From Pelagibacteraceae bacterium AG-337-I02 (GTDB lineage Bacteria; Pseudomonadota; Alphaproteobacteria; HIMB59; GCA-002718135): a stretch of DNA of 64,000 bases. The stretch is from NCBI GenBank assembly GCA_003282155.1, contig QBZY01000001.1:18917-82916 (forward strand). Direction: 5' to 3'. The notes below the pieces were generated by a model. The model did no database searches, was not told where the DNA came from, and worked only from the letters and a program-made list of their open reading frames with translations. The position numbers and the translations under genes were made by a program. Shown here in pieces: positions 2,301 through 49,644 of this stretch. Each line of letters opens with the position of its first letter. Position 1 is the stretch's first letter.

Positions 2301-2303
2301 ATT

Positions 2304-3419: not shown

Positions 3420-3442
3420 ACCTAAGCATATGATAAAAAAAA

Positions 3443-8014: not shown

Positions 8015-8018
8015 AGTT

Positions 8019-35388: not shown

Positions 35389-36051
35389 ATGTTTGGACTA
35401 AAAAGTGCATCTTTATTTGGTGATACCAAAAAACTTGAGAGAGAAATTGATGAGTTTGTCGATATTGTATCTGAAGTAGGTTTGGTATTTAAATCGATAG
35501 TTCCAACTTATCTCAATCATTCCGCCAATGGTAAATTTGAGGAAATGGTTGAAAAAGTAAAAGACATGGAAAGTAAGGCCGACAAAATTACGAAAGATGT
35601 TGAGCATACTCTTTATGAAGAAACACTAATTCCAGATGCAAGAAGTGATGTGTTACGACTTCTAGAACATATCGACGAATTAATTGGAATGTACCAAGGT
35701 AATTGTTATCACTTCTCCATTCAAAAACCTAATTTTCCAAAAGAGTTTCATCAAGATTTAATTGAGTTAACAGAGACTGTTGTAAATTGTGTTGAATCAT
35801 TATGTTTAACCGTAAGATCATTTTTTAGAGATATTAAATCTGTTAGAGATAATGCACATAAAGTTACATTTTATGAAAAAGAATCTGATATAAAATTTAG
35901 TTCTCTTGCAAGAAGAATTTTTGATTCTGAATTACCTCTAGATCAAAAAATGCATCTTCGATATTTTGTAGAGAAGATTGATCGTATTTGTGATCAAGCA
36001 GAAGACATAGCTGACGAGGTTCAAATTTACGCTATTAAACGTTCCGTTTAA
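35389..36051 (+). CDS. DUF47 / PhoU-like Pit accessory protein
   Basis: 220 aa all-helical protein immediately upstream (6 nt) of a PiT transporter, the conserved DUF47-PiT pairing. Confidence 0.75.
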   Translation: MFGLKSASLFGDTKKLEREIDEFVDIVSEVGLVFKSIVPTYLNHSANGKFEEMVEKVKDMESKADKITKDVEHTLYEETLIPDARSDVLRLLEHIDELIGMYQGNCYHFSIQKPNFPKEFHQDLIELTETVVNCVESLCLTVRSFFRDIKSVRDNAHKVTFYEKESDIKFSSLARRIFDSELPLDQKMHLRYFVEKIDRICDQAEDIADEVQIYAIKRSV

Positions 36052-36057
36052 TTTTCA

Positions 36058-37110
36058 ATGGAAATTACAATTCTAATTTTTTTATTTGGTGGTCTTTTTT
36101 TAGGTTGGTCACTTGGCGCCAATGATGCTGCAAATGTTTTTGGAACTGCAGTTGGAACACGAATGGTTAGTTTCACAAGTGCAGCAATAATTTGTAGTGT
36201 CTTTGTTATTCTAGGTGCAATTATTAGCGGAGCAGGTACAACAGAAACTTTAGGTAAGTTAGGTGCTATTAATGCATTGCCTGGTGCTTTTGCAGCATGT
36301 GTTGCTGCAGGAATATCTGTTTATTTAATGACCAAAGTTGGCTTGCCTGTTTCAACAACGCAAGCGATTGTTGGAGCAATTGTTGGTTGGAATTTATACA
36401 CGGGATCTTCAACTAATCTTCAAGTTTTAATTACTATTTTAGGAACATGGATACTATGTCCTATCATTGCAGGAGTTATTGCAATGGGTTTGTTTACTTT
36501 TACAAAAAGAGTTATACTCAATAGAAAGTTACATATTCTCAGACTTGATGCTTATACAAGAACAGCTTTACTTTTAGCGGGTGCTTTCGGTGCTTATAGT
36601 TTAGGTGCAAACAATATTGCTAATGTAATGGGTGTCTTCGTACCTATATCACCGTTTACTGATGTTACTATTGGAAATTTATTTGTCTTTTCTTCCAAAG
36701 AACAATTATTTCTTCTCGGTGGTTTAGCAATAGCTGTTGGTGTTTTTACTTACTCGAAAAGAGTTATGTTTACCGTTGGTAATGATCTCTTAAAAATGAC
36801 ACCGGTGGCAGCATTTATTGTTGTTATATCGCATTCTATTGTTTTATTTTTATTTGCATCCCAGGGCATAAGTGCTTTCTTACAATCTATAAATCTTCCC
36901 TCTATACCTTTGGTGCCAGTATCAAGTTCCCAAGCTGTTGTTGGCGGCGTAATTGGAATTGGTCTTTTAAAAGGTGGAAAAGAGGTTCAATGGTCAATTG
37001 CAGGAAGAATTTCTTTGGGTTGGATGACACTACCTATAATTGCTGCTTTAATTTCTTTAATTGTTTTATTTATTCTAGAAAATATTTTTAATTTAACGGT
37101 CTCTTTTTAA
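36058..37110 (+). CDS. pit: PiT-family inorganic phosphate transporter
   Basis: 350 aa. GANDAANVFGTAVG and a second-half GANNIANVMG signature, plus LPVSTTQAIVGAIVGW. Confidence 0.9.
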   Translation: MEITILIFLFGGLFLGWSLGANDAANVFGTAVGTRMVSFTSAAIICSVFVILGAIISGAGTTETLGKLGAINALPGAFAACVAAGISVYLMTKVGLPVSTTQAIVGAIVGWNLYTGSSTNLQVLITILGTWILCPIIAGVIAMGLFTFTKRVILNRKLHILRLDAYTRTALLLAGAFGAYSLGANNIANVMGVFVPISPFTDVTIGNLFVFSSKEQLFLLGGLAIAVGVFTYSKRVMFTVGNDLLKMTPVAAFIVVISHSIVLFLFASQGISAFLQSINLPSIPLVPVSSSQAVVGGVIGIGLLKGGKEVQWSIAGRISLGWMTLPIIAALISLIVLFILENIFNLTVSF

Positions 37111-37631
37111 TTAACTGCTCGATAAGAAAAAATAAAATCTTCCTGGATTTTAGTTTCAATAGCCCCTTTTCTTCTTGATCGCACTAGATCAATAGCTTCT
37201 TGTTTTTCATAATTGAATTCAACAAGTAAAATAGCTGCAATCGTTCCAGCTCTTCCTTTTCCTCCACGGCAATGTAAAACTAAATTTTTTCCATCTATCA
37301 ATTCGTTCTTTAATAAAACTTTGGTTGTCTCCCATTTATATTTAAAATCTTTATCTGGTGCTCCCATGTCATAGATAGGTAAGTGGTACCAATGTAATTT
37401 ATGTTCATAAATACTTTTGACAAATAAAGTTTTATCACACAATTTTTCAAATTCACTATCTTCAACAAAGGAAGTGATTGAGCTACAATTATTGTTTTTA
37501 AAAAGATTAAGTTCTTCATTAAAAATTGAAACTTCAAAGGTTCCTTCTTTGTTAAGTCCTGGAAAAGAAGTTAATATTATTTTTCCTGAAAAAGATTTTG
37601 ATTCAATAAAATCGTAATTGCTAAATTGCAT
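37107..37631 (-). CDS. Cys-based (CX5R) dual-specificity/PTP-like phosphatase
   Basis: 174 aa with the P-loop VLHCRGGKGRAGT. Its ATG directly abuts the phnZ-like stop. Confidence 0.7.
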   Translation of the reverse strand: MQFSNYDFIESKSFSGKIILTSFPGLNKEGTFEVSIFNEELNLFKNNNCSSITSFVEDSEFEKLCDKTLFVKSIYEHKLHWYHLPIYDMGAPDKDFKYKWETTKVLLKNELIDGKNLVLHCRGGKGRAGTIAAILLVEFNYEKQEAIDLVRSRRKGAIETKIQEDFIFSYRAVN

Positions 37632-38201
37632 TTAAGACTGATTAGCTAAAAAAGACTTTCTTGCTTCTTCTAAATAAGGACGAAAATGCTCAACATCAGG
37701 TGTTTTTTTATCTAAAATTTTAGCTAAATCATCAAATCGTCTTAACTCTACAGCCTCATCCATTAACGGTTTGCTAATAAACTCATCTGCTTCATCTTTT
37801 GTGAAGGGGCCACCTTGGACTTTTAGAGAAAGTTTTGAAGCTTCGGATAAACTTTCGTAATACCCTTCTTCAACACTAGATAAATATCTTTTTGAATCAA
37901 CATGTGCCCTAATTGGTAAAATAACATCTTCGCCAAAATATTTTTTTAAGAAATCTGCACCTAAATTTTCATGATGACCATCTTTACCTTCATGAATAGG
38001 ATCGCCATCTTCGTAAATGAGATGTCCAACATCATGAAGTAAAGCTGCAGCAATTGTGGAGCCGGGTAATTTATTTTGTTCCGCTAATTCAGCACACTGA
38101 AGAGCATGTTCTAATTGTGTCACATCCTCATTGCCATACTGAATATCCGCACCTTTAGTTTTTAAAAGATCTAACAAATAATCTACGATATTTTCTTTCA
38201 T
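37632..38201 (-). CDS. phnZ: HD-domain phosphonate-degradation oxygenase, PhnZ/TmpB family
   Basis: 189 aa. Ligand pattern LEHALQ, LLHDVGH, HHENLGA and RAHVDSKRYL, plus the C-terminal LQGGPF...ELRRFDDLAK signature of phosphonate-operon HD proteins. Confidence 0.8.
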   Translation of the reverse strand: MKENIVDYLLDLLKTKGADIQYGNEDVTQLEHALQCAELAEQNKLPGSTIAAALLHDVGHLIYEDGDPIHEGKDGHHENLGADFLKKYFGEDVILPIRAHVDSKRYLSSVEEGYYESLSEASKLSLKVQGGPFTKDEADEFISKPLMDEAVELRRFDDLAKILDKKTPDVEHFRPYLEEARKSFLANQS

Positions 38202-38296
38202 TCTAATATTTAATTAACTTATTAGAGAATAATTTCAATTCCAAGTTTAATAGGATTGAACAATTTTATAATAATATCTATTAAGATAGAAATTAA

Positions 38297-39394
38297 ATGG
38301 ATAAAAAATTACTTACCCCAGGTCCTTTAACAACCTCTATGACTACAAAAGAAGCCATGCTTCATGACTGGGGTTCAAGAGATAAAAAATTTATTGATCT
38401 TAACTCATCTATAAGAGAGTCACTGGTAAAATTAATAGATGGTGAAGATAATTATCAATGTGTACCGATGCAAGGTAGTGGAACATTTGCCGTTGAGTCA
38501 ATGGTCAGCTCACTTACTTCTAAAGATTCTAAAATACTAATCCTTATTAATGGTGCGTATGGACAACGAATGAAAAAAATGTGCACTTACCTAAATAGAG
38601 ATTTTATAGAGTATGAAGTTGCTGAACATGAAGTTCACGAATTAAGTAAAATTGAAAAATTAATTGATACGAATGATTTAACTCATATTTTCGCCGTATA
38701 TTGTGAGACAACTTCAGGTATTTTAAATCCCATTGAAGAAATTGCAGATTTAGCAGAGTCAAAAAAAATCTCTTTATTTATAGATGCTATGAGTGCTTTT
38801 GGGGCTTTGCCTCTTAGCGCAAAAAAAGTAACCTTTGACGCCGTTGCTGCTTCTTCAAATAAATGTTTAGAGGGTGTTCCAGGCGTTGGTTTTATTTTAG
38901 TAAAAAATGATGTTATTCAAAATGCAGAAGGAAATAGTCATTCGTTAAGTCTTGATTTGTATGATCAATGGCAGGCAATGGAAAAAAATAAACAATGGCG
39001 ATTTACACCCCCTACCCATGTATTAGCGGCTTTTAATCAAGCTATAAAAGAACACGAAAAAGAAGGAGGGGTTCAAGGAAGACATGCACGATATAAAAAA
39101 AATTGTGAGATTATATGTGCTGGGATGAAAGAATTGGGTTTTGAACAACTACTTCCAGATAATTTACAAGCACCTATAATTATTACTTTTAAGCAGCCAA
39201 ATGATTCGAATTTTAATTTTGATAAATTTTATAATGCCTTGAGTGACAAAGATTTTTTAATTTATCCAGGTAAATTAACGGTAGCGGAAACCTTTAGAAT
39301 TGGTTGTATTGGTAATTTAAATGAAAATGATATGCATAATACTTTAGGAGCTGTTAAAGAAGTAATTCAAGAATTAGCACTCAAAATAAATTAA
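38297..39394 (+). CDS. phnW: 2-aminoethylphosphonate:pyruvate aminotransferase
   Basis: 365 aa. The LLTPGPLTTS N-terminus and PLP-lysine block ASSNKCLEGVPG are typical of PhnW. Confidence 0.87.
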   Translation: MDKKLLTPGPLTTSMTTKEAMLHDWGSRDKKFIDLNSSIRESLVKLIDGEDNYQCVPMQGSGTFAVESMVSSLTSKDSKILILINGAYGQRMKKMCTYLNRDFIEYEVAEHEVHELSKIEKLIDTNDLTHIFAVYCETTSGILNPIEEIADLAESKKISLFIDAMSAFGALPLSAKKVTFDAVAASSNKCLEGVPGVGFILVKNDVIQNAEGNSHSLSLDLYDQWQAMEKNKQWRFTPPTHVLAAFNQAIKEHEKEGGVQGRHARYKKNCEIICAGMKELGFEQLLPDNLQAPIIITFKQPNDSNFNFDKFYNALSDKDFLIYPGKLTVAETFRIGCIGNLNENDMHNTLGAVKEVIQELALKIN

Positions 39395-39398
39395 TTTA

Positions 39399-40031
39399 AT
39401 GACACAAGAAATAGAAATTCCATTAATTCAAGCGACCAATGAAAATCTTCAAGGATATGGTTATCTTATTGATTCATTTGAAAAAAGTGAAATAGAAATT
39501 GTTACATGGCCAAAACAAGGTTGGAGAGAAATTGAAGAGGGGACAGGAAATGAAGGCGGAACAACAGAAGGTTCTTTTGATACGTGGTGGCAAGGAGATA
39601 CTCTTTATGGACAAAATAATGCGGTAGAACATAAAAGTGATTACGAAATTGATGGGAAATATATTCTTGGATATTCCACTAATCCTGACAATGAATTACA
39701 GAAACAAAACTACACTCATCCAGATAAAATTTATTTATGGCATGCCAACTATCATCCAGATGGTGGTCAACTTTTTTTTCCTAAAGAAAACAAGCCTTTT
39801 ATCTGTCCATTAGCATTACCAACTGATGATATAAAATTAGAAAATTTTAAAGCATTTTACTGTGATGGTTCTAAGGGTCTTTATATCCATCCAAACATAT
39901 GGCACGAAGGTGTTTTCCCAGTCTCTGAAAAGCAATCTTTTGACGGAAAACAAGGAAAAGTTCATGCAAGAGTAAGCATTGATTTAAAAGAAGAGTTTAA
40001 TAAATATATCTATTTTAAAACTCAAATTTAA
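39399..40031 (+). CDS. AllA (ureidoglycolate lyase)-family cupin protein of unknown function
   Basis: IPLIQATNENLQGYGYLI, YHPDGGQLFFP and YIHPNIWHEGVFP align with the AllA N-terminal, ERHPxxxQxFxP and HxxxWH blocks. About 50 aa longer than AllA. 4 nt after phnW. Confidence 0.6.
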   Translation: MTQEIEIPLIQATNENLQGYGYLIDSFEKSEIEIVTWPKQGWREIEEGTGNEGGTTEGSFDTWWQGDTLYGQNNAVEHKSDYEIDGKYILGYSTNPDNELQKQNYTHPDKIYLWHANYHPDGGQLFFPKENKPFICPLALPTDDIKLENFKAFYCDGSKGLYIHPNIWHEGVFPVSEKQSFDGKQGKVHARVSIDLKEEFNKYIYFKTQI

Positions 40032-40053
40032 TTAGTACTTATTAATTTAAACT

Positions 40054-40848
40054 ATGAAAATTATTCATTTATCTGATCCACATATTTATACTGATAAAAT
40101 ACATAGTATCGATCCAGTAGATAGATTTAAAAAAGCATTAGATCATATTATAATAAATCATAGCGATGCTGACCTTTTTGCAATTACAGGAGATATTACT
40201 GATCTAGGAGATAAAGAATCATATCAATTATTTATAGAGATAATTAAAGAAAAAAAATTACCTCAAAAATTAAAACCTCAACTTATTATTGGTAACCATG
40301 ACAACCGAGAGGAATTTAAAATTAACTTCCCTTCAGTGGAAACAGATAACAATGGTTTTGTTCAATATTTTATCGACAGAGAGGATAAGAGATTTATTTT
40401 TATCGATACAAATTTAATCAATACACATGCAGGTCATTATTGTGAGGATAGACAAGAATGGTTCACAAAAATATTAAATGAAACATCCAAAAATAAAAAT
40501 ATTTATGTTTTTATGCATCATAATCCTCTTGCTTTGGTAAAGGATGAAAGTGATGGGATAGGGTTAAAACAAAAAGAAGAGTTTAAAAAAATTATATTTA
40601 GTAATAAAGAAAAAATTAAGCATATTTTCTTTGGCCATCAACATATTACAAGTTCTGGTTCATATGGTGGTATTACTTTTTCGTCTCCAAGAAGTACTTG
40701 GTCTCCTCTGATACCTAACTTTTCAAATGAATATCGTTTAGGAACAGCTAACACAGATACAAATTATAATGTTGCAATAATTCGATCAGATGCTTTAGTT
40801 ATTCATACAGAAGATTTTTTAAAAACAGAAGTTAATTGGTTTAAATAA
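40054..40848 (+). CDS. Calcineurin-like metallophosphoesterase (GpdQ/CpdA-type phosphodiesterase)
   Basis: Motifs LSDPH, GDITDLGD, GNHDN, MHHNP and GHQH. 264 aa. Confidence 0.75.
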   Translation: MKIIHLSDPHIYTDKIHSIDPVDRFKKALDHIIINHSDADLFAITGDITDLGDKESYQLFIEIIKEKKLPQKLKPQLIIGNHDNREEFKINFPSVETDNNGFVQYFIDREDKRFIFIDTNLINTHAGHYCEDRQEWFTKILNETSKNKNIYVFMHHNPLALVKDESDGIGLKQKEEFKKIIFSNKEKIKHIFFGHQHITSSGSYGGITFSSPRSTWSPLIPNFSNEYRLGTANTDTNYNVAIIRSDALVIHTEDFLKTEVNWFK

Positions 40849-40851
40849 AAA

Positions 40852-41958
40852 TTATTTTTTTTCGATGACAAATATTTCATTGTTAAAATAAAGACCTTTA
40901 TTTTTAGCAACAATTTTTTGAACTACTTTTTCGTAATTTTTTGTTTTTTCTACCTTCATAACTTTATCATCATCCATTTGATTAACATATATGGAAGCAT
41001 TCCAAGCAGAAAAAATTAAGGATGTCGCTATACCTCCACTGATTTCTGTTGGTAGAGCTCTCAGTTTGCATTTAATAATTCTTTTTTCTCCAAAAGATAA
41101 AGTGCTTAATAAATCTTTATCTAAATTTTTCTTAAGATAAGAAATGATACTATTTCCAAGAGAAGGAAATGGGTCTTCTTTTGGCCAAATTTTACGAATT
41201 ATTTCATTAGCAGGATCTTTTCCTGAAGCATGAATAGTTAATAATTTCCCTTTTGATTTAAGCGCTCTAATCATTGGTTCAATGACATATTTTGATTTCT
41301 TTTCTGCTGAAATTCTTGAACGATAAGGCTGTGAAGCAATAATAAGATCAAATTTATTATCTGATTTTTTTTTGGTAGGGATTAATTCATTAACATTAAA
41401 TTCTTGATCTTCGCGGTAGATAACCATGACTGAAGGCTCTTTATAAGTATGATTACCTGACTTTTTATTAATTTCTATATTCCATTTTTTTTCTAAAAAT
41501 TCATTTTGTTTTCTTAATTGTTGGGCAAATTCAAGAGAGGTCTCACCTTTTAATTTAATAATATTCCAATTAATTTTTTTCTGTTTAACTTCATTTTTTG
41601 ATTTTAGATTTGCGGCTTCCGCGTAGTGTAAATTTGAAATGACAAAAACAGTATTCTTATGCTCAACGAACCTATCGGGTAATTTTTCTAAACCTAATCT
41701 TACATCTTCTATGCTTATTTCTTTTGTGCAAACTAATAGAGGTACGTTAGGCCTAGCCTCGTGGCACTGACGCATTACATTCATAAGTAAAGAACCATCC
41801 CCCATACCAGCATCAAATATTTTTAAACCAGGTTTTTGAGGTTTAATTTTATTTACATGAGGACGTATCGCATCGGCAATTTGATTTTTTTCATTTGTTG
41901 TAGTTACAAATAATAAATATTTTTGTCTGTTATCATAAAACCTGAAATTTTTTTTCAT
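40852..41958 (-). CDS. Methyltransferase-like protein with a large insertion (unassigned family)
   Basis: 368 aa. SAM motif-I-like IFDAGMGDGS (aa ~47-56). FDLIIASQPY (aa ~203-212) resembles the (D/N/S)PPY motif IV of amino-group methyltransferases but lies about 145 aa away rather than the usual ~60-70. Confidence 0.4.
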   Translation of the reverse strand: MKKNFRFYDNRQKYLLFVTTTNEKNQIADAIRPHVNKIKPQKPGLKIFDAGMGDGSLLMNVMRQCHEARPNVPLLVCTKEISIEDVRLGLEKLPDRFVEHKNTVFVISNLHYAEAANLKSKNEVKQKKINWNIIKLKGETSLEFAQQLRKQNEFLEKKWNIEINKKSGNHTYKEPSVMVIYREDQEFNVNELIPTKKKSDNKFDLIIASQPYRSRISAEKKSKYVIEPMIRALKSKGKLLTIHASGKDPANEIIRKIWPKEDPFPSLGNSIISYLKKNLDKDLLSTLSFGEKRIIKCKLRALPTEISGGIATSLIFSAWNASIYVNQMDDDKVMKVEKTKNYEKVVQKIVAKNKGLYFNNEIFVIEKK

Positions 41959-41960
41959 TA

Positions 41961-43073
41961 CTAATAAAGTCCCATTGATTTAGCAGAAGAGATGAAGGCT
42001 TCTTTATTGCCAATAAAGTTTTTACCTCGTTCCCCTAAAAACGCATCATCTACTATATTATTCCATTCTTGAACAGGAACTTTTATTTCATTTAAGTTAA
42101 GAGGAACCTCTAAAGAACGCATAAATTCACTCAGATGATTTGCGGCATTCTCTAGGTTATCGTTAAAAATTAATTTTAGTCTTTCTTCAGCTACACTATC
42201 AATTCCAACCATACTTTTAGTAATCATCGGTAAAGTAAATGAACAAGCAATACCATGCTGAATACCGTAATTGAGTGTCACAGGGTATGATAGATTGTGC
42301 GCAATAGCAGTTTTCGTATTGGAAAACGCTAAGCCAGCATGAACGCACGCCAATGCAATGTTTGAGCGTAATACAACATTTCTTAAATCTTTAGTGAGAA
42401 GTGGTAAATTTTCTAATACTAATTTTGATGCTTGTATTGCATGAGAGGCAGAAATTGGGTTCGCATTAATATTCCAAATACTTTCCATCGAATGGGAGAG
42501 AGCATCTAAACCAGTTGAAATGGTTAAGCCTAAAGGCTTATCAACCATAATAGATGGATCGATAATTGCTTTTTCTGCATAAAGAGATTTATGAGCCAAA
42601 GATAATTTATTGTTTTTTTCTTTATCCCAAATTGTGGCCCAACACGTAAGCTCACTCGATGTTCCTGAAGTTGTAGGTATTGCAATCATCTTGATTGGAT
42701 TTTCGACTCTTGGACTTTTCTTATTGCGAACGAAATCTGTTAGATATTCTTGTTTATCTTTAAATGCAGCAATTGCTTTAGCTGTGTCTGTAACAGAGCC
42801 ACCACCTATAGCTAAAATATAATCTACCGATTCATTCATTGAAGAAAATTTTTTTTGTAGCTCTAAAATATCCTTATAATCTGGATTAGGCTGAACATCC
42901 GTCATAATGGATAAGGGTGGATTTGAAGAAGATTTTAATTCATCGCTATATTTTTTAAAAATTTCTTCTGGATGAGTGATAATGATATAGTTCTTATTTT
43001 TAAGTGCATCATGTACTTCTTTAAATCTATTTTCTCCAAAGATAATTTCAACAGGGTTAAAATAGTTCCACAT
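41961..43073 (-). CDS. Iron-containing alcohol dehydrogenase, possibly phosphonoacetaldehyde reductase / 2-hydroxyethylphosphonate dehydrogenase-like
   Basis: 370 aa. GGGSVTDTAKAIA nucleotide motif and His-rich metal site (DALSHSMES, AIAHNLSYP, HGIACS). The family call is firm; the substrate is inferred from context. Confidence 0.75.
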   Translation of the reverse strand: MWNYFNPVEIIFGENRFKEVHDALKNKNYIIITHPEEIFKKYSDELKSSSNPPLSIMTDVQPNPDYKDILELQKKFSSMNESVDYILAIGGGSVTDTAKAIAAFKDKQEYLTDFVRNKKSPRVENPIKMIAIPTTSGTSSELTCWATIWDKEKNNKLSLAHKSLYAEKAIIDPSIMVDKPLGLTISTGLDALSHSMESIWNINANPISASHAIQASKLVLENLPLLTKDLRNVVLRSNIALACVHAGLAFSNTKTAIAHNLSYPVTLNYGIQHGIACSFTLPMITKSMVGIDSVAEERLKLIFNDNLENAANHLSEFMRSLEVPLNLNEIKVPVQEWNNIVDDAFLGERGKNFIGNKEAFISSAKSMGLY

Positions 43074-43077
43074 TACA

Positions 43078-44157: not shown

Positions 44158-44187
44158 GACTTATTCTCCTGAATATCTTAAAATAAA

Positions 44188-44212
44188 ACAGCGGCTTTTA
44201 TAAAGCCGCTGT
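44188..44212 (-). terminator. Intra-operon intrinsic terminator / mRNA-stabilising hairpin after the binding-protein gene
   Basis: The minus strand reads ACAGCGGCTTT-ATA-AAAGCCGCTGT (11-bp perfect stem) followed by TTTATTTT. Starts 27 nt after the SBP stop. Confidence 0.65.
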
Positions 44213-44239
44213 AGTAAAAAGTTAACAATAAAGTAATCT

Positions 44240-45493
44240 CTATAAAAGATCCTCTATTTCTTCCATCATCTCTTCTTGAAGATCAGCCATATTATCTGCA
44301 CTACCTGTAGCAATTTCTTCAGTGTAATCATAGATTACCTGAGTTATTGCTAGACCGTTTTCACCAGGATATGCAAACCAATCAGCCAATAAAGGTAATT
44401 GATTTACAGCAGTTAGTTTGTTTGGATTTTTAGTATAAAAATCACCTAACAAATCATTGGCTGCTTTATTTGGTGGAACATATCCAGTAGTTTCAGCAAC
44501 TAAAGCTGCACCAATACCAGAAGTGATAAACTTTAAGAAAGTCCATGCAGCATCTACTCTTGCTGGATCATCAGATGTAGAAACTAACATCGCAGCATTT
44601 CCACCCGCTGGAAGTCTTGCTGGAGTTCCTCCGTTTACACCTGGCATTCCTGGAAATGGTGCTGTTTTAAGTTCAAAATCTGCTTTGGCTGCATTCACTG
44701 AACCTAAGCTTGATGTTGACCAGAAAAACATACCAATAGTGCCTGCATTAAATGCAGCTTGACCATCAGCAATTGAATAGTTTGGCATATTACAACCACT
44801 CATTATGTCATGCATTTGTTGTAAAGTTGCTAGACCAGCATCTCCACCCATATTAACAGCTCCATCTTTTACCATTGGAACATTTTGAGTGTGCATTAAA
44901 GCTTGGTGAAACCAGTTACCTGTAATATTCCAGCCAAAATATAAAGTTCCTTTTCCAGCTGCTGCTAATTTATTACAAGCTGCGATAACTTCGTCCCAGT
45001 TGGTTGGGATGCTATCTATACCTGCTTCAGCTAATAGATCCATGTTATAGTATCCAACAGGTGTTGATACAGAAAATGGTAACCCATATACATCACCACC
45101 AAAGGTAGATAAACTTAACATAGCAGAGTGATAACCATCTTTTTCAAAATCAGCTTCTCCTGCAATAAAAGGCTCTAATGATTTTGCAATCCCTTTATCA
45201 ACAAGTGGTGCTTGTCTGTTAAGACCTTGCATTGTTACATCTGGTAAATTACCTGAAGTAGACTCTCTGAAGATTGTTGCAGTTGCATCCTCATAGTTTT
45301 CATAAGTTGCTCTAAATTTAACTTGAATATCTGGATGTGCTTTTTCAAACTCTGGCATAATAGCTTGAAACGTAACGTCAAATAATCCAGAATAAGGATA
45401 AGCTACTTCTATTTCAATAGACTTAGCTGAATTAACAGAACCATAAAAACCAAAAGCTAGTACGGCTGCCAATCCTGTAATTAATTTTTTCAT
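44240..45493 (-). CDS. ABC transporter periplasmic substrate-binding protein, family 1 (UgpB/sugar type), probable organophosphonate/organophosphate binder
   Basis: 417 aa with a signal peptide (AAVLAFGFYGSVNSA). GGGAGGA Shine-Dalgarno. Sits between phnY and the unassigned trio. Confidence 0.82.
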   Translation of the reverse strand: MKKLITGLAAVLAFGFYGSVNSAKSIEIEVAYPYSGLFDVTFQAIMPEFEKAHPDIQVKFRATYENYEDATATIFRESTSGNLPDVTMQGLNRQAPLVDKGIAKSLEPFIAGEADFEKDGYHSAMLSLSTFGGDVYGLPFSVSTPVGYYNMDLLAEAGIDSIPTNWDEVIAACNKLAAAGKGTLYFGWNITGNWFHQALMHTQNVPMVKDGAVNMGGDAGLATLQQMHDIMSGCNMPNYSIADGQAAFNAGTIGMFFWSTSSLGSVNAAKADFELKTAPFPGMPGVNGGTPARLPAGGNAAMLVSTSDDPARVDAAWTFLKFITSGIGAALVAETTGYVPPNKAANDLLGDFYTKNPNKLTAVNQLPLLADWFAYPGENGLAITQVIYDYTEEIATGSADNMADLQEEMMEEIEDLL

Positions 45494-45629: not shown

Positions 45630-47072
45630 TTACCAAGGTAGCGAAAAGGTTTTTACATTAGTAAAACTTTTCATTGCTTCAATAACACCCTCTTTGTAAC
45701 CAAGACCTGAGTCTTTAATTCCTCCAAAAGGAGACATTTCAATTCTGTAGCCTGGAACCTCCCAAATATTTACCGTACCAACATTTAAACCTTGAATATA
45801 TTTTTTTGCTCGCATGAAGTTGTTTGTACATACTCCAGATGATAATCCGAATGCGGTTGAATTAGATATTTTCATTACAGCTTCATCGTCATTAGGCACA
45901 CGAATAATTGGGATAACTGGACCAAATGTTTCTTCTAAAACTAATTCACTTTTAGGATCAACATGATCTATAACTATTGGGGGTAACAAAGCGCCCTTTC
46001 TTCCAGGGTGATATAAAATTTTTGCACCATCTTCTTCAGCCATAGAAACTCTTTTATCAAAAAGTTCTGCAGCTTGAGCATTAACAACAGTACCTAAGTC
46101 TGTTTCCATATTCATAGGATCACCAAATTTAATTTTCTTAGCACGCTCAAGAGCCATCTCAACAAATTGATCTGCAATAGATTCTTGAACCAGTATTCTT
46201 TTAACAGCTGTACAACGTTGGCCAGAGTTTTTCGTTGCGCCAGTAACAGCTAGCTCAACAGCTTTTTTAAGATCATCACCATCTAAGTCATTTAAAACAA
46301 TTAATGGATCATTACCACCAAGCTCTAGAACTGTTCTTTTGTATCCAGCTTGTTCAGCAATTAATTTTCCTACACCTACACTGCCTGTAAAAGTAATGAG
46401 ATCAATATTTGGATTCTTAATCATTTCAGATCCAATATCTTGAGGCCATCCAGTTACAACTGAAAACATTTCTGGTGGTAAACCTGCTTCATATAAAACA
46501 TCAGCGAGTACCATTGCTGTTAAAGGTGTTAATTCTGTTTGTTTACATACAGTACAATTATTTGTTGCAATTGAAGGCGCAATTTTATGCGCTACCATAT
46601 TTAAAGGATGATTAAATGGAGTGATTGCTGAGATTGCTGTTAAAGGTTCTCTTATGGTAAATATTTTTCTCGCTTTTCCATGCGGGGTTAAATCACAAGA
46701 AAATATTTCACCATCATCATGAATACAAAGTTGTGCCGTTAACGAAAATACATCAAAAGCTCTTCCTACTTCGTATAAAGAATCTTGTTTTGAGATACCA
46801 AGCTCTAAAGTAATAATATCAGAAATTTCATCTTTTCTTTTAACAAGTACTTCTGCAGCAGTTTGAAGAATTTTTTGTCTCTCATATCTTGTAAGCTTAG
46901 GTTGGTAATTTGCAGCAATATCTAAAGCCTTTCTTGCATGCTCTGCAGTACCGGCTGGGACCGTTCCGATTACTTCACCTGTAAATGGGTACTCAACATT
47001 TATTGTTTTATCTGAAGTAACTTTTTCTCCAGCTATACGCATTGCTTCATTAATCATTTTTTTGTGCATCAT
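45630..47072 (-). CDS. phnY: Phosphonoacetaldehyde dehydrogenase (aldehyde dehydrogenase family)
   Basis: 480 aa ALDH with catalytic blocks ELGGNDP and [13 protein letters not shown] overlap with phnA upstream, the phnA-phnY pairing of the Sinorhizobium-type pathway. Confidence 0.78.
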
Positions 47073-48310
47073 AGGGCTCCATTAATTGCATAATAAAATG
47101 CATCATAGTTATATAATTGTTTGCTAGTATCTAAGTTTTGTAATTTTACATTTGATATGAATGGCACTTCTCTTTCATGGAGTCCACCATGAGAACGTAA
47201 AGGTTCATTTAATCCAGAAAGATTGTGTTTATCTTCAGATGAACCAATAGTCATAAATTCTGAAGACATACATATAATATCCCCCATTCTATCTGGAGGT
47301 AAATTATAAGTAGAGCATCCTTCGTCTTTTGTTAAAACAACTTCTATATCTTTTATTTCTTTAATAGTATTTACAACTGAATCTACCTTGCTCTTGTCTT
47401 CTAAATAAATTGTTGCAAAAGAACCAAGTGAACCATGATGAACGACATATGGATCTGTAATTGGTAGTATGACTTTAGCCATGTTTGGTTCAAATTTTTT
47501 ATCTAAATAATCTTGTAAAAATATTGCATTAGGTGAACCGTCTTCTTTTGATTTTGGTTTCATACCGTGATCTGCTGTAATGATTATAGAAACATTCTCC
47601 TTATTTAAAAGACCAATGTATTTATCAAACATTGCATAAAATTTATTTGCTGTTTCATTTCCCGGTGCATATTTGTGTTGAATATAATCCGTAGTCGATA
47701 AATACATAATATTTGGTTTAAACTCTTCAAGAAGTTTTACACCTGCAGCCATTACAAATTCAGAGAGTCCTTCAGAATATACTTCTGGCACTGGCATCCC
47801 CAACCAATTGTTTACATTATCTATACCATTGAGATCTTTTGTTGCTTGATCAGATTTTTCAGCAGAAAAACAAATAGCTCTCTCATTATCAAAACTTAAT
47901 CCGTTTCCTAAAAGTGTTCTCAACTTGTCTTTTGCAGTAACAAGCGCAATTTTTGAACCGGAATTGTAAAATTTTTCAAAAATAGTTGGTGCTCGCATAT
48001 ATTTTGGGTCATTCATCATTACTTCTTCACCAGTCTCAGGTGTATAAAAGAAGTTTCCGCATATACCGTGAACAGAACTTGGTTGGCCTGTTACAATGGA
48101 AATGTTATTTGGATTTGTAAAACTTGGAATAGCGCTGTGAACAAGTAGGTTTTCACCACTTGCAATTAATTTATCAAGATTTGGTGTAAGGTTAGATTTT
48201 GATGCTTCGTCGAGATACTCTTTTTGACTACCATCAAGGCATATAACAATAGCAGTTTTTGAGAAAGAGCTTGGATATTCTCTTTTATTAATTTCTAAAT
48301 TACCGGACAC
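47069..48310 (-). CDS. phnA: Phosphonoacetate hydrolase (alkaline-phosphatase superfamily)
   Basis: 413 aa. Metal/nucleophile blocks [15 protein letters not shown] and ITADHGM are characteristic of PhnA / nucleotide-pyrophosphatase-type enzymes. Confidence 0.83.
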
Positions 48311-48489: not shown

Positions 48490-49629
48490 GTGGGCACAAT
48501 ATCACTTAAAAATATTTCAAAGTCATTTGGATCTACGCAAGTATTAAACAATTTAAATGTTGATATACAAGATGGCGAATTTTTAACATTAGTTGGTCCA
48601 TCTGGTTGTGGTAAATCTACGTTACTTCGAATCATTGCAGGATTAGAACAACAAACTTCAGGCGATGTATTAATTGATAATAAGAATGTAAATAAAATTA
48701 GAGCCAGCGAGCGAGATCTTGCAATGGTATTTCAATCATACGCTTTATATCCACATTTAACGGTACGAAGAAATTTAGAAACACCTCTAAGACTGAGAGA
48801 TTATAATGCTTTTGAACGCCTTCCTTTGATAGGGAATTTTTCTCCAAACAAAAAAAGTAAAACTGAGTCTATCAATCAATTAGTTAATAAAACATCTGAA
48901 ACACTTCAGATTTCTGAACTACTGGATAGAAAACCAGGACAATTATCGGGAGGCCAAAGACAAAGAGTAGCTCTTGGTCGCGCAATGGTAAGAGAACCTG
49001 TTGCATTCTTAATGGATGAACCGCTATCAAATTTAGATGCTGCTCTAAGAGTGCATATGCGATCCGAATTATCAGAACTTCATAATTCACTTAAAACAAC
49101 ATTTGTTTATGTAACGCATGATCAAGCAGAAGCATTGACAATGTCTTCTCGTATGGCGGTAATGATTGATGGAAATTTATTACAACTAGATACACCTCAA
49201 GAAGTTTATGATAATCCTTCATCATTAAGTGTTGCTCAATTTGTTGGTAGTCCTAAAATAAATATTTTTAATGGATCTTCAGATTCTAGTGGAACTGTTA
49301 ATTTTTTAAATGTTAACCTGAAAAGAAAAAGTTCTGAAAGTAATTCAGATTTACACATAGGAATTCGACCAGAACATTTAGAAATTACTAATAATAAAGA
49401 TGAAAACACATTTAGTGGCACTGTTGCTTACAGAGAAAATTTAGGATCAGATATATACTTCCATGTTAATATAGAAGACAACTCAAAAAAAATAATTGTA
49501 AGAGGCTTACCTCAATTTACACATCAAATTACAAATGGTTCAAGTGTAAATATCAAGAGAGATTCAAATAAAGCATTGTTATTTAATCAAACAGGGATGA
49601 GGATTCATTTTAATAATGCAATGGGATAA
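48490..49629 (+). CDS. ABC transporter ATP-binding protein, UgpC/MalK type with a C-terminal regulatory domain
   Basis: 379 aa. Walker A GPSGCGKST, signature LSGGQRQRVALGRA, Walker B FLMDEPLSNLD. GTG start behind GGGGGGAG. Confidence 0.93.
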   Translation: MGTISLKNISKSFGSTQVLNNLNVDIQDGEFLTLVGPSGCGKSTLLRIIAGLEQQTSGDVLIDNKNVNKIRASERDLAMVFQSYALYPHLTVRRNLETPLRLRDYNAFERLPLIGNFSPNKKSKTESINQLVNKTSETLQISELLDRKPGQLSGGQRQRVALGRAMVREPVAFLMDEPLSNLDAALRVHMRSELSELHNSLKTTFVYVTHDQAEALTMSSRMAVMIDGNLLQLDTPQEVYDNPSSLSVAQFVGSPKINIFNGSSDSSGTVNFLNVNLKRKSSESNSDLHIGIRPEHLEITNNKDENTFSGTVAYRENLGSDIYFHVNIEDNSKKIIVRGLPQFTHQITNGSSVNIKRDSNKALLFNQTGMRIHFNNAMG

Positions 49630-49644
49630 GGATAACATTTACTA

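What the first reader, a model, noticed from the sequence alone, without database searches (positions are those of the whole stretch)
37107..40848. Orphan PhnZ-type C-P oxygenase (no hydroxylase partner) fused in an operon with a CX5R phosphatase, and an AllA-family cupin tied to phnW
SEEN: 37632-38201 encodes an HD protein with the full PhnZ/TmpB-type ligand pattern and the LQGGPF...RRFDDLAK tail. Its stop directly abuts the ATG of a 174-aa protein carrying an HCRGGKGRAGT Cys-phosphatase P-loop. On the other strand, phnW is followed after 4 nt by a 210-aa AllA/ureidoglycolate-lyase-family cupin. After a further 22 nt comes a GpdQ/CpdA-like metallophosphoesterase. ESTABLISHED: PhnZ-family diiron oxygenases cleave only 1-hydroxylated phosphonates. 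In the described systems they are paired with a 2-oxoglutarate/Fe(II) hydroxylase (PhnY*, TmpA). No TauD/PhyH/BBOX-like ORF is present anywhere in this 64-kb window. INFERENCE: one option is that this PhnZ acts on environmentally supplied 1-hydroxy-2-aminoethylphosphonate. The other is that a non-canonical partner makes or transforms its substrate; the cupin is the only beta-barrel candidate nearby. The role of a Cys phosphatase co-transcribed with a C-P oxygenase is also unexplained.
Basis: partly seen in the sequence, partly recalled or inferred. Interest (0 to 1): 0.72.

Follow-up and report, generated by a model that had tools for sequence, protein, structure and literature searches.

The report
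SAR11 phosphonate island with accessory cupin
This is part of a phosphorus-scavenging gene island of the ocean bacterium SAR11; its lone PhnZ-type enzyme is an already documented arrangement, while the small cupin next to phnW is an unstudied protein that recurs in aminophosphonate-degrading gene clusters of many bacteria.

Summary
The interval is the middle of a larger SAR11 (Pelagibacterales) island at about 33-51.5 kb. The island also encodes PhnY and PhnA, so the full PhnW-PhnY-PhnA route for 2-aminoethylphosphonate (AEP) is there. It further holds a PhpC-like alcohol dehydrogenase, a Ugp-like ABC importer and a PHO4/PhoU-like phosphate-uptake pair.

The HD protein is a true PhnZ/TmpB-family member with all metal ligands, in a SAR11-specific clade. 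No 2OG oxygenase lies in the 64 kb. However, phnZ without phnY* inside phnW clusters is already published (24 of 75 phnWAY clusters) and is read as scavenging of ready-made (R)-1-hydroxy-AEP. Some SAR11 islands carry the HD gene with only a transporter and the Cys phosphatase, so it does not need the cupin.

What appears undescribed is the cupin. It is a conserved, AllA-like family found in at least 597 species. It sits directly after phnW in SAR11 and in a betaproteobacterium. It sits directly after tmpA-tmpB in Leisingera, Ruegeria, Amylibacter and Hoeflea, and next to pbfA or phnX-like genes elsewhere. Because it co-occurs with canonical TmpA, it is an optional accessory and not a substitute hydroxylase. 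Its reaction remains unknown.

The parts
35389..36051 (+). PhoU_div/DUF47 protein, partner of the phosphate transporter
   Evidence: Pfam PF01865, 79.3 bits. Conserved next to PHO4 in SAR11 loci.
36058..37110 (+). PHO4-type inorganic phosphate transporter, convergent with the Cys phosphatase
   Evidence: Called PF01384 PHO4 for the orthologue in L001 and L085. 85-100% identical across SAR11 loci.
37107..37631 (-). Small dual-specificity/PTP-type Cys phosphatase (C121, R127), last gene of the HD operon
   Evidence: PF22784, 49.6 bits. Closest PDB relatives are SsoPTP and PRL phosphatases. P-loop located. Only 309 homologues found, all marine and SAR11-like. It is always convergent with PHO4, but its upstream partner is the HD gene here and an ABC permease in L085/L086.
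37632..38201 (-). PhnZ/TmpB-family HD-domain diiron oxygenase, SAR11-specific clade, with no hydroxylase partner
   Evidence: NCBIfam scores: TIGR03276 202.3 bits (cutoff 214.6), TmpB model 159, PhnZ1 model 153. PDB matches: 6npa E 5e-34, 4mlm E 5e-29. All ligands plus Y22/E25 are kept, and it forms its own clade at 33-40% identity to PhnZ and TmpB.
38202..38296 (.). Divergent 95-nt intergenic region between the HD and phnW operons, with a conserved motif
   Evidence: Alignment of 16 distinct SAR11 versions shows >=90% conserved TTAACTTAT-AGA and TTAA-N5-TTGA. An inverted repeat TTAACTTA/TAAGTTAA appears in L032-L034. A regulatory role is inferred, not tested.
38297..39394 (+). PhnW, 2-aminoethylphosphonate:pyruvate transaminase
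   Evidence: NF010006 511 bits (cutoff 296); TIGR02326 468 bits (cutoff 401).
39399..40031 (+). AllA-superfamily cupin of unknown function; recurrent accessory gene of aminophosphonate clusters
   Evidence: PF04115 matches only residues 118-181. AllA equivalog models score at most 32 bits against cutoffs of 160-315. AF2 pLDDT 93; best folds are AllA 2bdr/1xsq at 14-16% identity. Invariant residues H119, W168, H169. Neighbourhoods.
40054..40848 (+). GpdQ/CpdA-class metallophosphoesterase (probable phosphodiester / phosphonate-monoester hydrolase)
   Evidence: PF00149, 61 bits. SpdA model 175.6 bits (cutoff 400). GpdQ 2zo9/3d03 E 5e-11 and Rv0805. All metal motifs present. Substrate is inferred.
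40852..41958 (-). Conserved SAR11 hypothetical protein with a class I SAM-methyltransferase fold
   Evidence: No Pfam, NCBIfam or PDB sequence match. AF2 pLDDT 74; Foldseek best hit is histamine N-methyltransferase, E 8e-10. Present in most SAR11 islands.
41961..43073 (-). PhpC-like iron-type alcohol dehydrogenase (2-hydroxyethylphosphonate <-> phosphonoacetaldehyde)
   Evidence: TIGR03405 362 bits (cutoff 423.7), the best hit. Role taken from PMC13576164.
43078..44157 (-). MetE-like (Meth_synt_2) protein, function unknown in this context
   Evidence: PF01717, 120 bits. Methionine synthase models score 196 bits against a cutoff of 392. Part of an insertion present in only some SAR11 islands.
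44240..45493 (-). Periplasmic solute-binding protein (UgpB-like family)
   Evidence: PF01547 and PF13416. UgpB model 65.8 bits, far below its cutoff.
45630..47072 (-). PhnY, phosphonoacetaldehyde dehydrogenase
   Evidence: TIGR03250 797.7 bits (cutoff 635.65).
47069..48310 (-). PhnA, phosphonoacetate hydrolase (GTG start)
   Evidence: TIGR02335 466.9 bits (cutoff 407.55). ORF located.
48490..51494 (+). ABC importer: ATPase (48490-49629, GTG start) and two permeases (49645-50601, 50601-51494), Ugp-like
   Evidence: UgpC model 391.5 bits and PhnT2 model 307.9 bits, both below cutoff. UgpA- and UgpE-like permeases.

Best explanation
The interval is the core of a modular phosphorus-scavenging island of a SAR11 (Pelagibacterales) genome. 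I describe it as three modules.

Module 1 is the PhnZ-family HD oxygenase plus the Cys phosphatase. The oxygenase cleaves the C-P bond of an imported aminophosphonate that is already 1-hydroxylated. The most likely substrate is (R)-1-hydroxy-2-aminoethylphosphonate or an N-methylated relative. The reaction needs O2 and no dedicated hydroxylase.

Module 2 is phnW-cupin-diesterase together with the oppositely oriented methyltransferase-like gene, phnY and phnA. It degrades AEP to acetate and phosphate. The GpdQ-like diesterase probably frees aminophosphonates or phosphate from ester-linked head groups.

Module 3 is the PhpC-like dehydrogenase, the MetE-like protein, the binding protein and the ABC importer. 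It feeds 2-hydroxyethylphosphonate and imported esters into the same route.

The cupin is neither the missing hydroxylase nor an ordinary ureidoglycolate lyase. It is a conserved, optional accessory protein of aminophosphonate catabolism. Most likely it is a metal-assisted lyase or isomerase of the AllA/KdgF mechanistic type, acting on an AEP-related compound.

Shown here: gene identities, family membership, synteny and the recurrence of the cupin. Inferred: the substrates of the HD protein, the diesterase, the phosphatase and the cupin.
For: Gene identities: PhnW, PhnY and PhnA all score above their equivalog cutoffs. The HD protein keeps every PhnZ/TmpB ligand and the Tyr/Glu substrate loop.

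No hydroxylase: no 2OG oxygenase in 64 kb. No TmpA-like hit in the window or in any of the SAR11 loci L001-L040 at E <= 10.

Published precedent: phnZ without phnY* in phnW clusters, read as R-HAEP scavenging (PMC8154272).

HD independence from the cupin: SAR11 islands L085/L086 carry an HD gene (68-71% identical), an ABC transporter and the phosphatase, with no phnW, cupin or phnYA.

Conservation: 29 species-level SAR11 genomes share phosphatase-HD | phnW-cupin.

Cupin recurrence:
- tmpA-tmpB-cupin in Leisingera, with TmpA at 600 bits (cutoff 400) and TmpB at 362 bits (cutoff 300). The same order occurs in Ruegeria, Amylibacter and Hoeflea.
- The cupin lies directly downstream in 13 of 70 metagenomic tmpB loci.
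- phnS2-phnT2-phnU2-phnW-cupin in a betaproteobacterium.
- Next to PbfA (672 bits, cutoff 525) and phnW in Rhodospirillaceae.
- Between a PhnX-like hydrolase and a TIGR03364 oxidoreductase in a cyanobacterial MAG.
- In total, 15 of 43 non-SAR11 loci have phosphonate genes within about 8 kb.

Single function: cupins from the different contexts are 61-78% identical, which suggests one function.

Mechanistic hint: the fold is AllA-like. AllA, KdgF and DUF4867 chemistry is described in PMC11968277.
Against: - No enzyme was assayed, so every substrate assignment is inferred.
- The HD protein scores 202.3 bits, just under the TIGR03276 cutoff of 214.6. It is no closer to PhnZ than to TmpB, so its substrate could be another 1-hydroxyphosphonate.
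- The rest of the genome could not be searched, so a distant hydroxylase gene cannot be excluded.
- 28 of 43 non-SAR11 cupin loci show no phosphonate gene within 8 kb.
- In Sneathiella L081 the cupin follows an allantoate-amidohydrolase-family gene. In three Kiloniellaceae/Denitrobaculum genomes allantoicase and PuuE lie 4.7 kb away.
- In Paraburkholderia the cupin follows an MFS transporter among unrelated genes.
- The role of the Cys phosphatase is unexplained.
Confidence: 0.6

Rival explanations
1. The cupin is the non-canonical partner of the orphan HD oxygenase. In this view it makes the 1-hydroxy substrate by 2OG-independent hydroxylation of AEP, or otherwise directly produces or transforms the oxygenase's substrate.
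For: - The HD gene and the cupin are direct neighbours, with the cupin start overlapping or abutting the HD stop, in 8 non-SAR11 genomes and 13 metagenomic loci.
- Three loci (L049, L154, L164) have a TmpB-like HD gene plus the cupin and no TmpA.
- The cupin has invariant H119 and H169 and near-invariant H189, D121, Q124 and E199, which could form a metal site.
- Related DUF4867 and AllA proteins are metalloproteins (PMC11968277).
Against: - Seven of the eight non-SAR11 genomes with an adjacent HD-cupin pair also have canonical TmpA just upstream, and 67 of 69 metagenomic tmpB loci have tmpA upstream.
- Only 19% of tmpAB operons carry the cupin.
- SAR11 HD genes occur without the cupin, and phnW-cupin pairs occur without an HD gene (L037-L039).
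- The only family match is the AllA lyase family.
- A simple hydroxylation needs a two-electron donor that a 210-aa cupin does not obviously have (established chemistry).
- Some family members have signal-peptide-like N-termini.
Confidence: 0.06
2. The cupin is an ordinary nitrogen-metabolism enzyme, such as a divergent ureidoglycolate lyase or similar hemiaminal lyase. Its position in phosphonate clusters would then be incidental to nutrient-scavenging islands.
For: - Pfam PF04115 is the only match, and the fold is AllA-like.
- An allantoate-amidohydrolase-family gene (687 bits, cutoff 452) lies directly upstream in Sneathiella L081.
- Allantoicase (418 bits) and PuuE/OHCU decarboxylase (540 bits) lie 4.7 kb away in L042, L044 and L064.
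- Most cupin loci have no phosphonate gene nearby.
Against: - AllA equivalog models score at most 32 bits against cutoffs of 160-315. Structural identity to AllA is only 14-16%.
- The Sneathiella adjacency is absent in two congeners whose cupins are 87-94% identical.
- Immediate adjacency to phosphonate genes recurs in at least six different cluster types and lineages.
- The SAR11 purine-catabolism operon is reported with its own ureidoglycolate lyase and occurs in only about 18-22% of genomes (bioRxiv 10.1101/2024.02.09.579562).
Confidence: 0.2
3. The HD oxygenase is not really orphan. A PhnY*/TmpA-like 2OG hydroxylase encoded elsewhere in the genome supplies its substrate from AEP.
For: Only 64 kb of the genome, and about 8 kb either side in related genomes, could be inspected. 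The characterised PhnZ, PhnZ1 and TmpB enzymes all work with such a partner (PMC10574752).
Against: - No such gene is in the window or in any of the SAR11 loci L001-L040.
- In tmpB loci the hydroxylase is almost always adjacent, 67 of 69, so separation would be atypical.
- Orphan phnZ in phnW clusters is common in complete genomes (PMC8154272).
- AEP already has a complete PhnW-PhnY-PhnA route in the same island.
Confidence: 0.12

Closest known systems
phnWAY (PhnW-PhnY-PhnA) AEP degradation clusters carrying an ancillary phnZ without phnY* (Zangelmi et al. 2021, PMC8154272)
   Same: The enzyme set is the same: PhnW, PhnY and PhnA above their equivalog cutoffs, plus a PhnZ-family HD oxygenase and no 2OG hydroxylase. 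The likely logic is also the same, with AEP degraded through phosphonoacetaldehyde and ready-made R-HAEP handled by the oxygenase.
   Different: The HD protein forms a SAR11-specific clade, 33-40% identical to PhnZ and TmpB and just under the TIGR03276 cutoff. The island adds a Cys phosphatase, an AllA-like cupin, a GpdQ-like diesterase, a methyltransferase-fold protein and phosphate-uptake genes. It has no LysR regulator.
TmpA/TmpB pathway for 2-trimethylaminoethylphosphonate (Leisingera caerulea; PDB 6NPA)
   Same: The HD oxygenase is in the same family and keeps the ligand and substrate-loop residues. The same cupin family is encoded directly after tmpB in Leisingera, Ruegeria, Amylibacter and Hoeflea.
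   Different: The window has no TmpA. Its HD protein scores 159 bits on the TmpB model against a cutoff of 300. The literature describes tmpAB as a two-gene operon (PMC10574752), whereas about one fifth of such operons here have the cupin as a third gene.
AllA ureidoglycolate lyase (PF04115; PDB 1XSQ, 2BDR) and the related DUF4867 accessory cupins of sulfoglycolysis clusters (PDB 9GYY)
   Same: The fold is shared and so are the HP..Q and WH signature residues. Like DUF4867, this cupin is a non-essential, recurrent accessory gene in organo-anion catabolic clusters where all the main steps are already assigned.
   Different: Identity to AllA is only 14-16%. The N-terminal 110 residues fall outside the Pfam model, and all AllA equivalog models are failed. 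The genomic context is aminophosphonate catabolism rather than purine catabolism.
Pbf ('phosphonate breakdown factor') ancillary enzymes PbfA-D, PbfF and PbfG of the Peracchi laboratory
   Same: It fits the same concept: an optional gene that recurs in AEP clusters and presumably widens the substrate range. It co-occurs with PbfA and with TIGR03364-type FAD oxidoreductases in some clusters.
   Different: The protein family is unrelated to any Pbf enzyme. No activity is known, and it is also found in the oxidative tmpAB operon and as a solitary gene.
GpdQ glycerophosphodiesterase (Enterobacter aerogenes) and class III cyclic-nucleotide phosphodiesterases (Rv0805, CpdA, SpdA)
   Same: It is a binuclear metallophosphoesterase with all motifs, and these are its closest solved relatives.
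   Different: It scores below the cutoffs of the SpdA and CpdA models. Its substrate is untested, and activity on phosphonate monoesters is only inferred from what is known of GpdQ.

Membership tests
[quoted passage not shown] | HD domain with the six-residue diiron ligand set (H, HD, H, H, D) | tested here: met
   H32, H56-D57, H77, H100 and D157 align with the ligands of 4MLM and 6NPA. Pfam HD scores 32.3 bits against a cutoff of 22.
[quoted passage not shown] | Substrate-loop Tyr and Glu (PhnZ Y24/E27) that gate the iron site and bind the 2-amino group | tested here: met
   Y22 and E25, in the motif YGNE, align with the PhnZ motif YIGE and the TmpB motif YLGE. The role of these residues is taken from my own knowledge of the PhnZ structure papers.
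[quoted passage not shown] | Score above a curated family cutoff (TIGR03276, TmpB or PhnZ1 equivalog model) | tested here: not met
   TIGR03276 scores 202.3 against 214.6; TmpB 159 against 300; PhnZ1 153 against 300. Authentic Leisingera TmpB also scores only 197.9 on TIGR03276, so this near-miss is weak evidence against family membership.
[quoted passage not shown] | Adjacent 2OG/Fe(II) hydroxylase (PhnY*/TmpA) as in all characterised pathways | tested here: not met
   No PF02668 or other 2OG oxygenase in 64 kb. No TmpA-like hit in the window or the SAR11 loci.
[quoted passage not shown] | O2-dependent C-P cleavage of an (R)-1-hydroxyphosphonate | not testable with these tools
   Requires an enzyme assay.
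AllA ureidoglycolate lyase | PF04115 match and AllA-like fold | tested here: met
   PF04115 scores 40.9 bits against a cutoff of 23, but covers only residues 118-181. Foldseek best hits are 2bdr and 1xsq, E 2e-8, TM 0.5-0.66.
AllA ureidoglycolate lyase | Score above an AllA equivalog cutoff | tested here: not met
   The best of eight AllA models gives 32.1 bits against cutoffs of 160-315.
AllA ureidoglycolate lyase | Purine/allantoin-catabolic gene context | tested here: not met
   No such genes flank it in any SAR11 locus. Only weak or non-conserved links appear elsewhere, in L081 and in L042/L044/L064.
2OG/Fe(II) or cupin-type phosphonate oxygenases (PhnY*, TmpA, HEPD/MPnS/HppE), tested for the cupin | Profile match to TauD/2OG-oxygenase or classical cupin metal motifs (HxH...E, ...H) | tested here: not met
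   No Pfam or NCBIfam hit other than PF04115/AllA at E <= 0.01. The conserved motif is NYHPDGGQ, with a single His. HppE (Psf4) appears only as a weak fold hit, E 6e-3, TM 0.28.
PhnW-PhnY-PhnA hydrolytic AEP pathway | All three enzymes present above equivalog cutoffs in one cluster | tested here: met
   PhnW 511 against 296. PhnY 797.7 against 635.65 and PhnA 466.9 against 407.55.
Cys-based (CX5R) protein-tyrosine/dual-specificity phosphatases | HCX5R P-loop and a family profile above cutoff | tested here: met
   H120-C121-X5-R127. PF22784 49.6 against 27 and PF22785 31.2 against 27. Closest solved relatives are SsoPTP and PRL.
Cys-based (CX5R) protein-tyrosine/dual-specificity phosphatases | General-acid Asp loop upstream of the P-loop | tested here: inconclusive
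   The candidate is DMGAPD at residues 88-93. It was not checked structurally.
GpdQ/CpdA-type binuclear metallophosphoesterases | Five metallophosphoesterase motifs | tested here: met
   SDPH 7-10, GDITD 46-50, GNHD 80-83, HHNP 155-158 and GHQH 194-197. PF00149 scores 61.1 bits.
GpdQ/CpdA-type binuclear metallophosphoesterases | Score above a curated equivalog cutoff (SpdA, CpdA) | tested here: not met
   SpdA 175.6 against 400; CpdA 64.2 against 225.

The most novel reading that the evidence does not exclude
The AllA-like cupin may be a new kind of phosphonate-processing enzyme that works on 1-hydroxy-aminophosphonates without O2 or organic cofactors. It would use the AllA/KdgF-type 'carbinol collapse' chemistry. 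One possibility is a phosphonate-to-phosphate rearrangement giving phosphoethanolamine or phosphocholine. The co-encoded Cys phosphatase or diesterase would then hydrolyse that product. Another possibility is a lyase-type C-P cleavage. Either would explain why the cupin sits beside PhnZ/TmpB, PbfA and PhnW genes, why it also occurs as a solitary gene and sometimes with a signal peptide, and why a phosphatase rides in the same island.
Probability: 0.05. Interest if true: 0.9.

Novelty: new variant of a known kind. Interest (0 to 1): 0.5.

Why it matters
SAR11 is the most abundant heterotroph in the surface ocean, and phosphonates are a major pool of dissolved organic phosphorus there. Published estimates of marine phnZ abundance differ about 20-fold, depending on whether only the three characterised subclades are counted (PMC10574752). 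The SAR11 HD clade described here may account for that gap, since Pelagibacterales make up 45% of marine phnZ sequences (PMC9381506), though I did not test this. Knowing its real substrate would therefore change budgets of marine phosphonate turnover.

The cupin is a well-defined candidate for the next 'phosphonate breakdown factor'. It is small, strongly conserved and present in at least 597 species. It is encoded after phnW in SAR11 and after tmpB in culturable Rhodobacteraceae, where genetics is possible. It is absent from the phosphonate literature I could search.

The result also corrects the picture of tmpAB as a strictly two-gene operon.

Tried and rejected
- A whole-genome search for PhnY*/TmpA was not possible. 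Only the window and about 8 kb around related loci could be screened.
- The first genome scan, with the 39-sequence cupin alignment, failed because no stretch was conserved enough. It was repeated with 13 sequences.
- Naive ORF calling in high-GC loci produced antisense artefacts; for example 'c5' and 'c46' masked the cupin and tmpA. I corrected these with tblastn and strand-specific ORFs.
- The plasmid collection held the cupin only in Paraburkholderia megaplasmids, among unrelated genes. This was uninformative.
- Literature searches for cupin or ureidoglycolate together with phnW, and for further Pbf names, found nothing relevant.
- The predicted structure gives no coordinates. I therefore could not check whether H119, H169 and H189 form a metal site.
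- I considered HEPD/MPnS-like chemistry for the cupin (2-HEP to hydroxymethylphosphonate, then HD cleavage). I rejected it because there is no sequence or fold similarity beyond the generic cupin barrel. In addition, the PhpC-like gene is absent from many islands that keep the cupin.
- I considered the phosphatase as an arsenate reductase because of its fixed position next to PHO4. There is no supporting evidence.

Full report
OBSERVATION

- The 174-aa protein at 37107-37631(-) has the P-loop HCRGGKGRAGT (C121, R127). It matches the PTP-SAK and dual-specificity phosphatase families above their gathering scores.
- The 189-aa HD protein at 37632-38201(-) ends with a TAA that is followed immediately by the phosphatase ATG.
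- phnW (38297-39394, +) scores 511 bits on the equivalog model against a cutoff of 296.
- The 210-aa cupin starts 4 nt after phnW. The 264-aa metallophosphoesterase starts 22 nt after the cupin.
- The tail motif of the HD protein reads VQGGPF rather than LQGGPF, which is a trivial difference.
- A Pfam scan of all 65 ORFs of at least 70 aa found no TauD, PhyH or other 2OG/Fe(II) oxygenase. A tblastn search with Leisingera TmpA gave no hit in the window even at E <= 10.

WHAT SURROUNDS IT

The window is about 30% GC and begins at dnaA, dnaN and recF. The cupin is 100% identical to that of the single-cell genome AG-470-M17. Homologues of the neighbouring hypothetical protein are named Candidatus Pelagibacter. 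The organism is therefore SAR11.

- Upstream lie a PhoU_div protein and a PHO4 phosphate transporter (35389-37110).
- Downstream on the minus strand lie a conserved 368-aa protein, a PhpC-like iron alcohol dehydrogenase (TIGR03405, 362 bits), a MetE-like protein and a solute-binding protein.
- Next come PhnY (797.7 bits, cutoff 635.65) and PhnA (466.9 bits, cutoff 407.55).
- A Ugp-like ABC ATPase and two permeases follow.

phnW is therefore part of a complete PhnW-PhnY-PhnA pathway for 2-aminoethylphosphonate (AEP). PhpC homologues were recently shown to oxidise 2-hydroxyethylphosphonate to phosphonoacetaldehyde in catabolic clusters (PMC13576164).

In 29 species-level SAR11 genomes the core order is conserved: phosphatase<-HD<- | ->phnW->cupin, usually followed by the diesterase, the 368-aa gene, phnY and phnA. 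The dehydrogenase / MetE-like / binding-protein block is an insertion present in only some of them.

THE HD PROTEIN

- Its closest solved relatives are TmpB (6NPA, E 5e-34) and PhnZ (4MLM, E 5e-29).
- All diiron ligands (H32, H56, D57, H77, H100, D157) and the substrate-loop Tyr and Glu (Y22, E25) are conserved.
- On NCBIfam it scores 202.3 bits on the generic 'phosphonate degradation HD-domain oxygenase' model, whose cutoff is 214.6. It scores far below the TmpB and PhnZ1 equivalog cutoffs. Authentic Leisingera TmpB scores 197.9 on the same generic model, so the near-miss is not meaningful.
- In a small tree the SAR11 proteins form their own clade, 33-40% identical to both PhnZ and TmpB.

It is thus a real family member with an uncharacterised specificity. 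The conserved Glu suggests a substrate that bears an amino or ammonium group. This last point is an inference from the published PhnZ structure.

ORPHAN STATUS IS KNOWN

Zangelmi et al. surveyed 19,425 complete genomes. They found phnZ without phnY* in 24 of 75 phnWAY clusters and in 15 of 1186 phnWX clusters, and never together with pbfA. They read it as a separate outlet for environmental (R)-1-hydroxy-AEP, which PhnW-PhnX processes poorly (PMC8154272).

Lockwood et al. reported that 45% of marine phnZ sequences are from Pelagibacterales and that phnZ often co-occurs with phnA (PMC9381506). Murphy et al. counted only the three characterised subclades and found them rare (PMC8316502; PMC10574752). 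This contrast suggests, but I did not test, that the SAR11 clade lies outside those subclades.

In the same chromosomal slot next to PHO4, an HD gene (68-71% identical) is accompanied only by an SBP_bac_6-type ABC transporter and the Cys phosphatase. There is no phnW, cupin, diesterase, phnY or phnA. The oxygenase therefore works as a stand-alone module fed by uptake.

THE CUPIN

- Pfam PF04115 (ureidoglycolate lyase) matches only residues 118-181. Every AllA equivalog model is failed by a wide margin, at most 32 bits against cutoffs of 160-315.
- A confident AF2 model (pLDDT 93.1, pTM 0.89) is most similar to AllA structures, but at 14-16% identity and TM 0.5-0.66. The next-best hits are the DUF4867 accessory cupins of sulfoglycolysis.
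- The family is large. It has 4062 clusters at 90% identity and 703 representatives at 50% identity. H119, W168 and H169 are invariant. R43, D121, Q124, Q185, H189 and E199 are nearly invariant.
Of these, 597 were confirmed as relatives.

Of the 80 loci kept, 37 (L004-L040) are SAR11. Of the 43 others, 15 have phosphonate genes within about 8 kb.
- Eight have a TmpB-like HD gene immediately upstream on the same strand. These are Amylibacter, Leisingera, Ruegeria and Hoeflea. Seven of them also have a TauD-family gene before the HD gene and a divergent LysR regulator.
- In Leisingera daeponensis the two upstream genes are TmpA (600 bits, cutoff 400) and TmpB (362 bits, cutoff 300). The cupin ORF starts at an ATG that overlaps the tmpB stop.
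- A betaproteobacterial MAG has phnS2-phnT2-phnU2-phnW-cupin in one string, with all four upstream genes above their cutoffs.
- Two Rhodospirillaceae place the cupin directly after a DAO-GcvT fusion protein, beside phnW, PbfA (672 bits, cutoff 525) and a phn-type LysR.
- An Arenicellales MAG has phnY-DUF72-cupin beside phnW.
- A cyanobacterial MAG has the cupin between a PhnX-like hydrolase and a TIGR03364 FAD oxidoreductase.

A metagenome scan seeded with TmpB gave an independent estimate. tmpA lies upstream in 67 of 69 loci with room to see it. The cupin lies immediately downstream in 13 of 70.

Cupins from these different contexts are 61-78% identical, and the cupin tree largely follows taxonomy. 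This points to one conserved function.

No paper in the searchable library mentions a cupin or ureidoglycolate lyase in connection with phnW. The review literature calls tmpAB a two-gene operon.

WHAT THE CUPIN IS NOT, AND WHAT IT MAY BE

Four points argue against the cupin being the missing hydroxylase.
- It accompanies a canonical TmpA hydroxylase.
- It is present in only about a fifth of tmpAB operons.
- It is absent from some HD-bearing SAR11 islands, and present beside phnW where no HD gene is near (L037-L039).
- It has no 2OG-oxygenase or classical HxH cupin signature.

The rival view, that it is a plain ureidoglycolate lyase, has some support.
- An allantoate-amidohydrolase-family gene sits directly upstream in one Sneathiella genome.
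- Allantoicase and PuuE lie 4.7 kb away in three Kiloniellaceae/Denitrobaculum genomes.

That support is limited. The Sneathiella adjacency is not conserved in congeners whose cupins are 87-94% identical. SAR11's purine operon is reported with its own lyase.

The closest mechanistic analogy is AllA, KdgF and DUF4867. These are metal-dependent cupins that open X-C-OH centres. DUF4867 is likewise a dispensable accessory of unknown function in clusters whose main steps are all assigned (PMC11968277).

My best guess, at low confidence, is a cofactor-light lyase or isomerase acting on an AEP-related compound common to the PhnW, PbfA and TmpB routes. Some family members have signal-peptide-like N-termini, which also argues against dependence on 2OG or NAD.

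THE PHOSPHATASE AND THE DIESTERASE

The Cys phosphatase family is narrow, with 309 homologues, all marine. Its gene is always convergent with PHO4, but the gene upstream of it varies: the HD gene here, an ABC permease in L085/L086. It therefore behaves as the terminal gene of whichever phosphonate operon abuts the phosphate transporter, and not as a specific partner of the oxygenase. A general phosphomonoesterase role in phosphorus scavenging is the simplest reading, but it is untested.

The metallophosphoesterase has all the catalytic motifs. GpdQ and Rv0805 are its closest solved relatives. GpdQ is known, from my own knowledge, to hydrolyse phosphodiesters and phosphonate monoesters. Release of AEP-type head groups from glycerophospho(no)diesters imported by the Ugp-like transporter is therefore plausible, but it is inferred.

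VERDICT

The finding is real and correctly described. Its headline, an orphan PhnZ, is an already documented arrangement with an accepted explanation, and the data here strengthen that explanation.

The new element is the AllA-like cupin as a recurrent but optional accessory of aminophosphonate catabolism. This includes its role as an overlooked third gene of tmpAB operons. The SAR11-specific clade of PhnZ-family oxygenases is the second new element.

The island is a new variant of a known kind of system. Interest is moderate: it yields a clean, testable enzyme-discovery target in an ecologically dominant organism. No evidence so far points to new chemistry.

LIMITS

- No whole-genome search for a distant hydroxylase was possible.
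- The 43 non-SAR11 loci are the cupins most similar to the query, not a random sample.
- ORF calling in the fetched loci was home-made.
- All substrate assignments are inferences.

Noticed in passing
window 33221-35030 (+): An LpxH/PlcP-like metallophosphoesterase (33221-34033) overlaps a GT4 glycosyltransferase (34023-35030). The pair resembles the phosphate-starvation lipid-renovation pair described for SAR11 (my own knowledge), which would fit a phosphorus-stress island.
   Followed up: partly
window 40852-41958 (-): A conserved 368-aa SAR11 protein has no Pfam, NCBIfam or PDB sequence match. Its AF2 model (pLDDT 74) is a class I SAM-methyltransferase, closest to histamine N-methyltransferase (Foldseek E 8e-10). 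A small-molecule methyltransferase inside a catabolic phosphonate island is unexplained.
   Followed up: partly
window 41961-45493 (-): The PhpC-like dehydrogenase, a MetE-like Meth_synt_2 protein and a binding protein form a block. It is present in some SAR11 islands (e.g. L011-L020) and absent from others (L001, L004, L032). The role of the MetE-like protein beside phosphonate genes is unknown.
   Followed up: partly
window 38202-38296: The 95-nt divergent region between the HD and phnW operons has conserved blocks, TTAACTTAT-AGA and TTAA-N5-TTGA, across SAR11. In L032-L034 there is a clear inverted repeat, TTAACTTA/TAAGTTAA. It is a candidate operator; no LysR regulator is encoded in the island.
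   Followed up: partly
L085 2371-8587 and L086 257-6472: An alternative SAR11 island occupies the same slot next to PHO4. It holds the HD oxygenase, an SBP_bac_6-type binding protein, an ABC ATPase, a fused permease and the Cys phosphatase, with no phnW, cupin, diesterase or phnYA.
   Followed up: yes
L049 ~7357-8600; L154; L164: These loci have a TmpB-like HD oxygenase directly followed by the cupin, with no TmpA gene upstream. In L049 the LysR gene abuts the HD gene. They are HD-cupin pairs outside SAR11 that also lack a hydroxylase.
   Followed up: partly
L060 6205-8609 (Leisingera daeponensis); L050: The tmpA-tmpB operon of Leisingera, described in the literature as a two-gene operon, is followed by the cupin ORF, whose ATG overlaps the tmpB stop.
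   Followed up: yes
alignment A1 (P0131, P0166, P0222): Some cupin family members carry N-terminal extensions that look like signal peptides. This suggests a periplasmic location for part of the family.
   Followed up: no
window 1212-4837 (-) and 11301-11963 (-): recF-like, dnaN and dnaA genes show that the window is origin-proximal. A separate GDPD-family glycerophosphodiester phosphodiesterase lies at 11301-11963.
   Followed up: no
window 47069-48310 (-) and 48490-49629 (+): phnA and the ABC ATPase both use GTG start codons. ATG-only ORF calling truncates them and leaves a false 700-nt 'gap'.
   Followed up: yes
L087 2284-5234: In a long-read metagenome contig the cupin, the diesterase and the 368-aa gene are broken into small ORFs. 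These are probably assembly frameshifts rather than pseudogenes.
   Followed up: no
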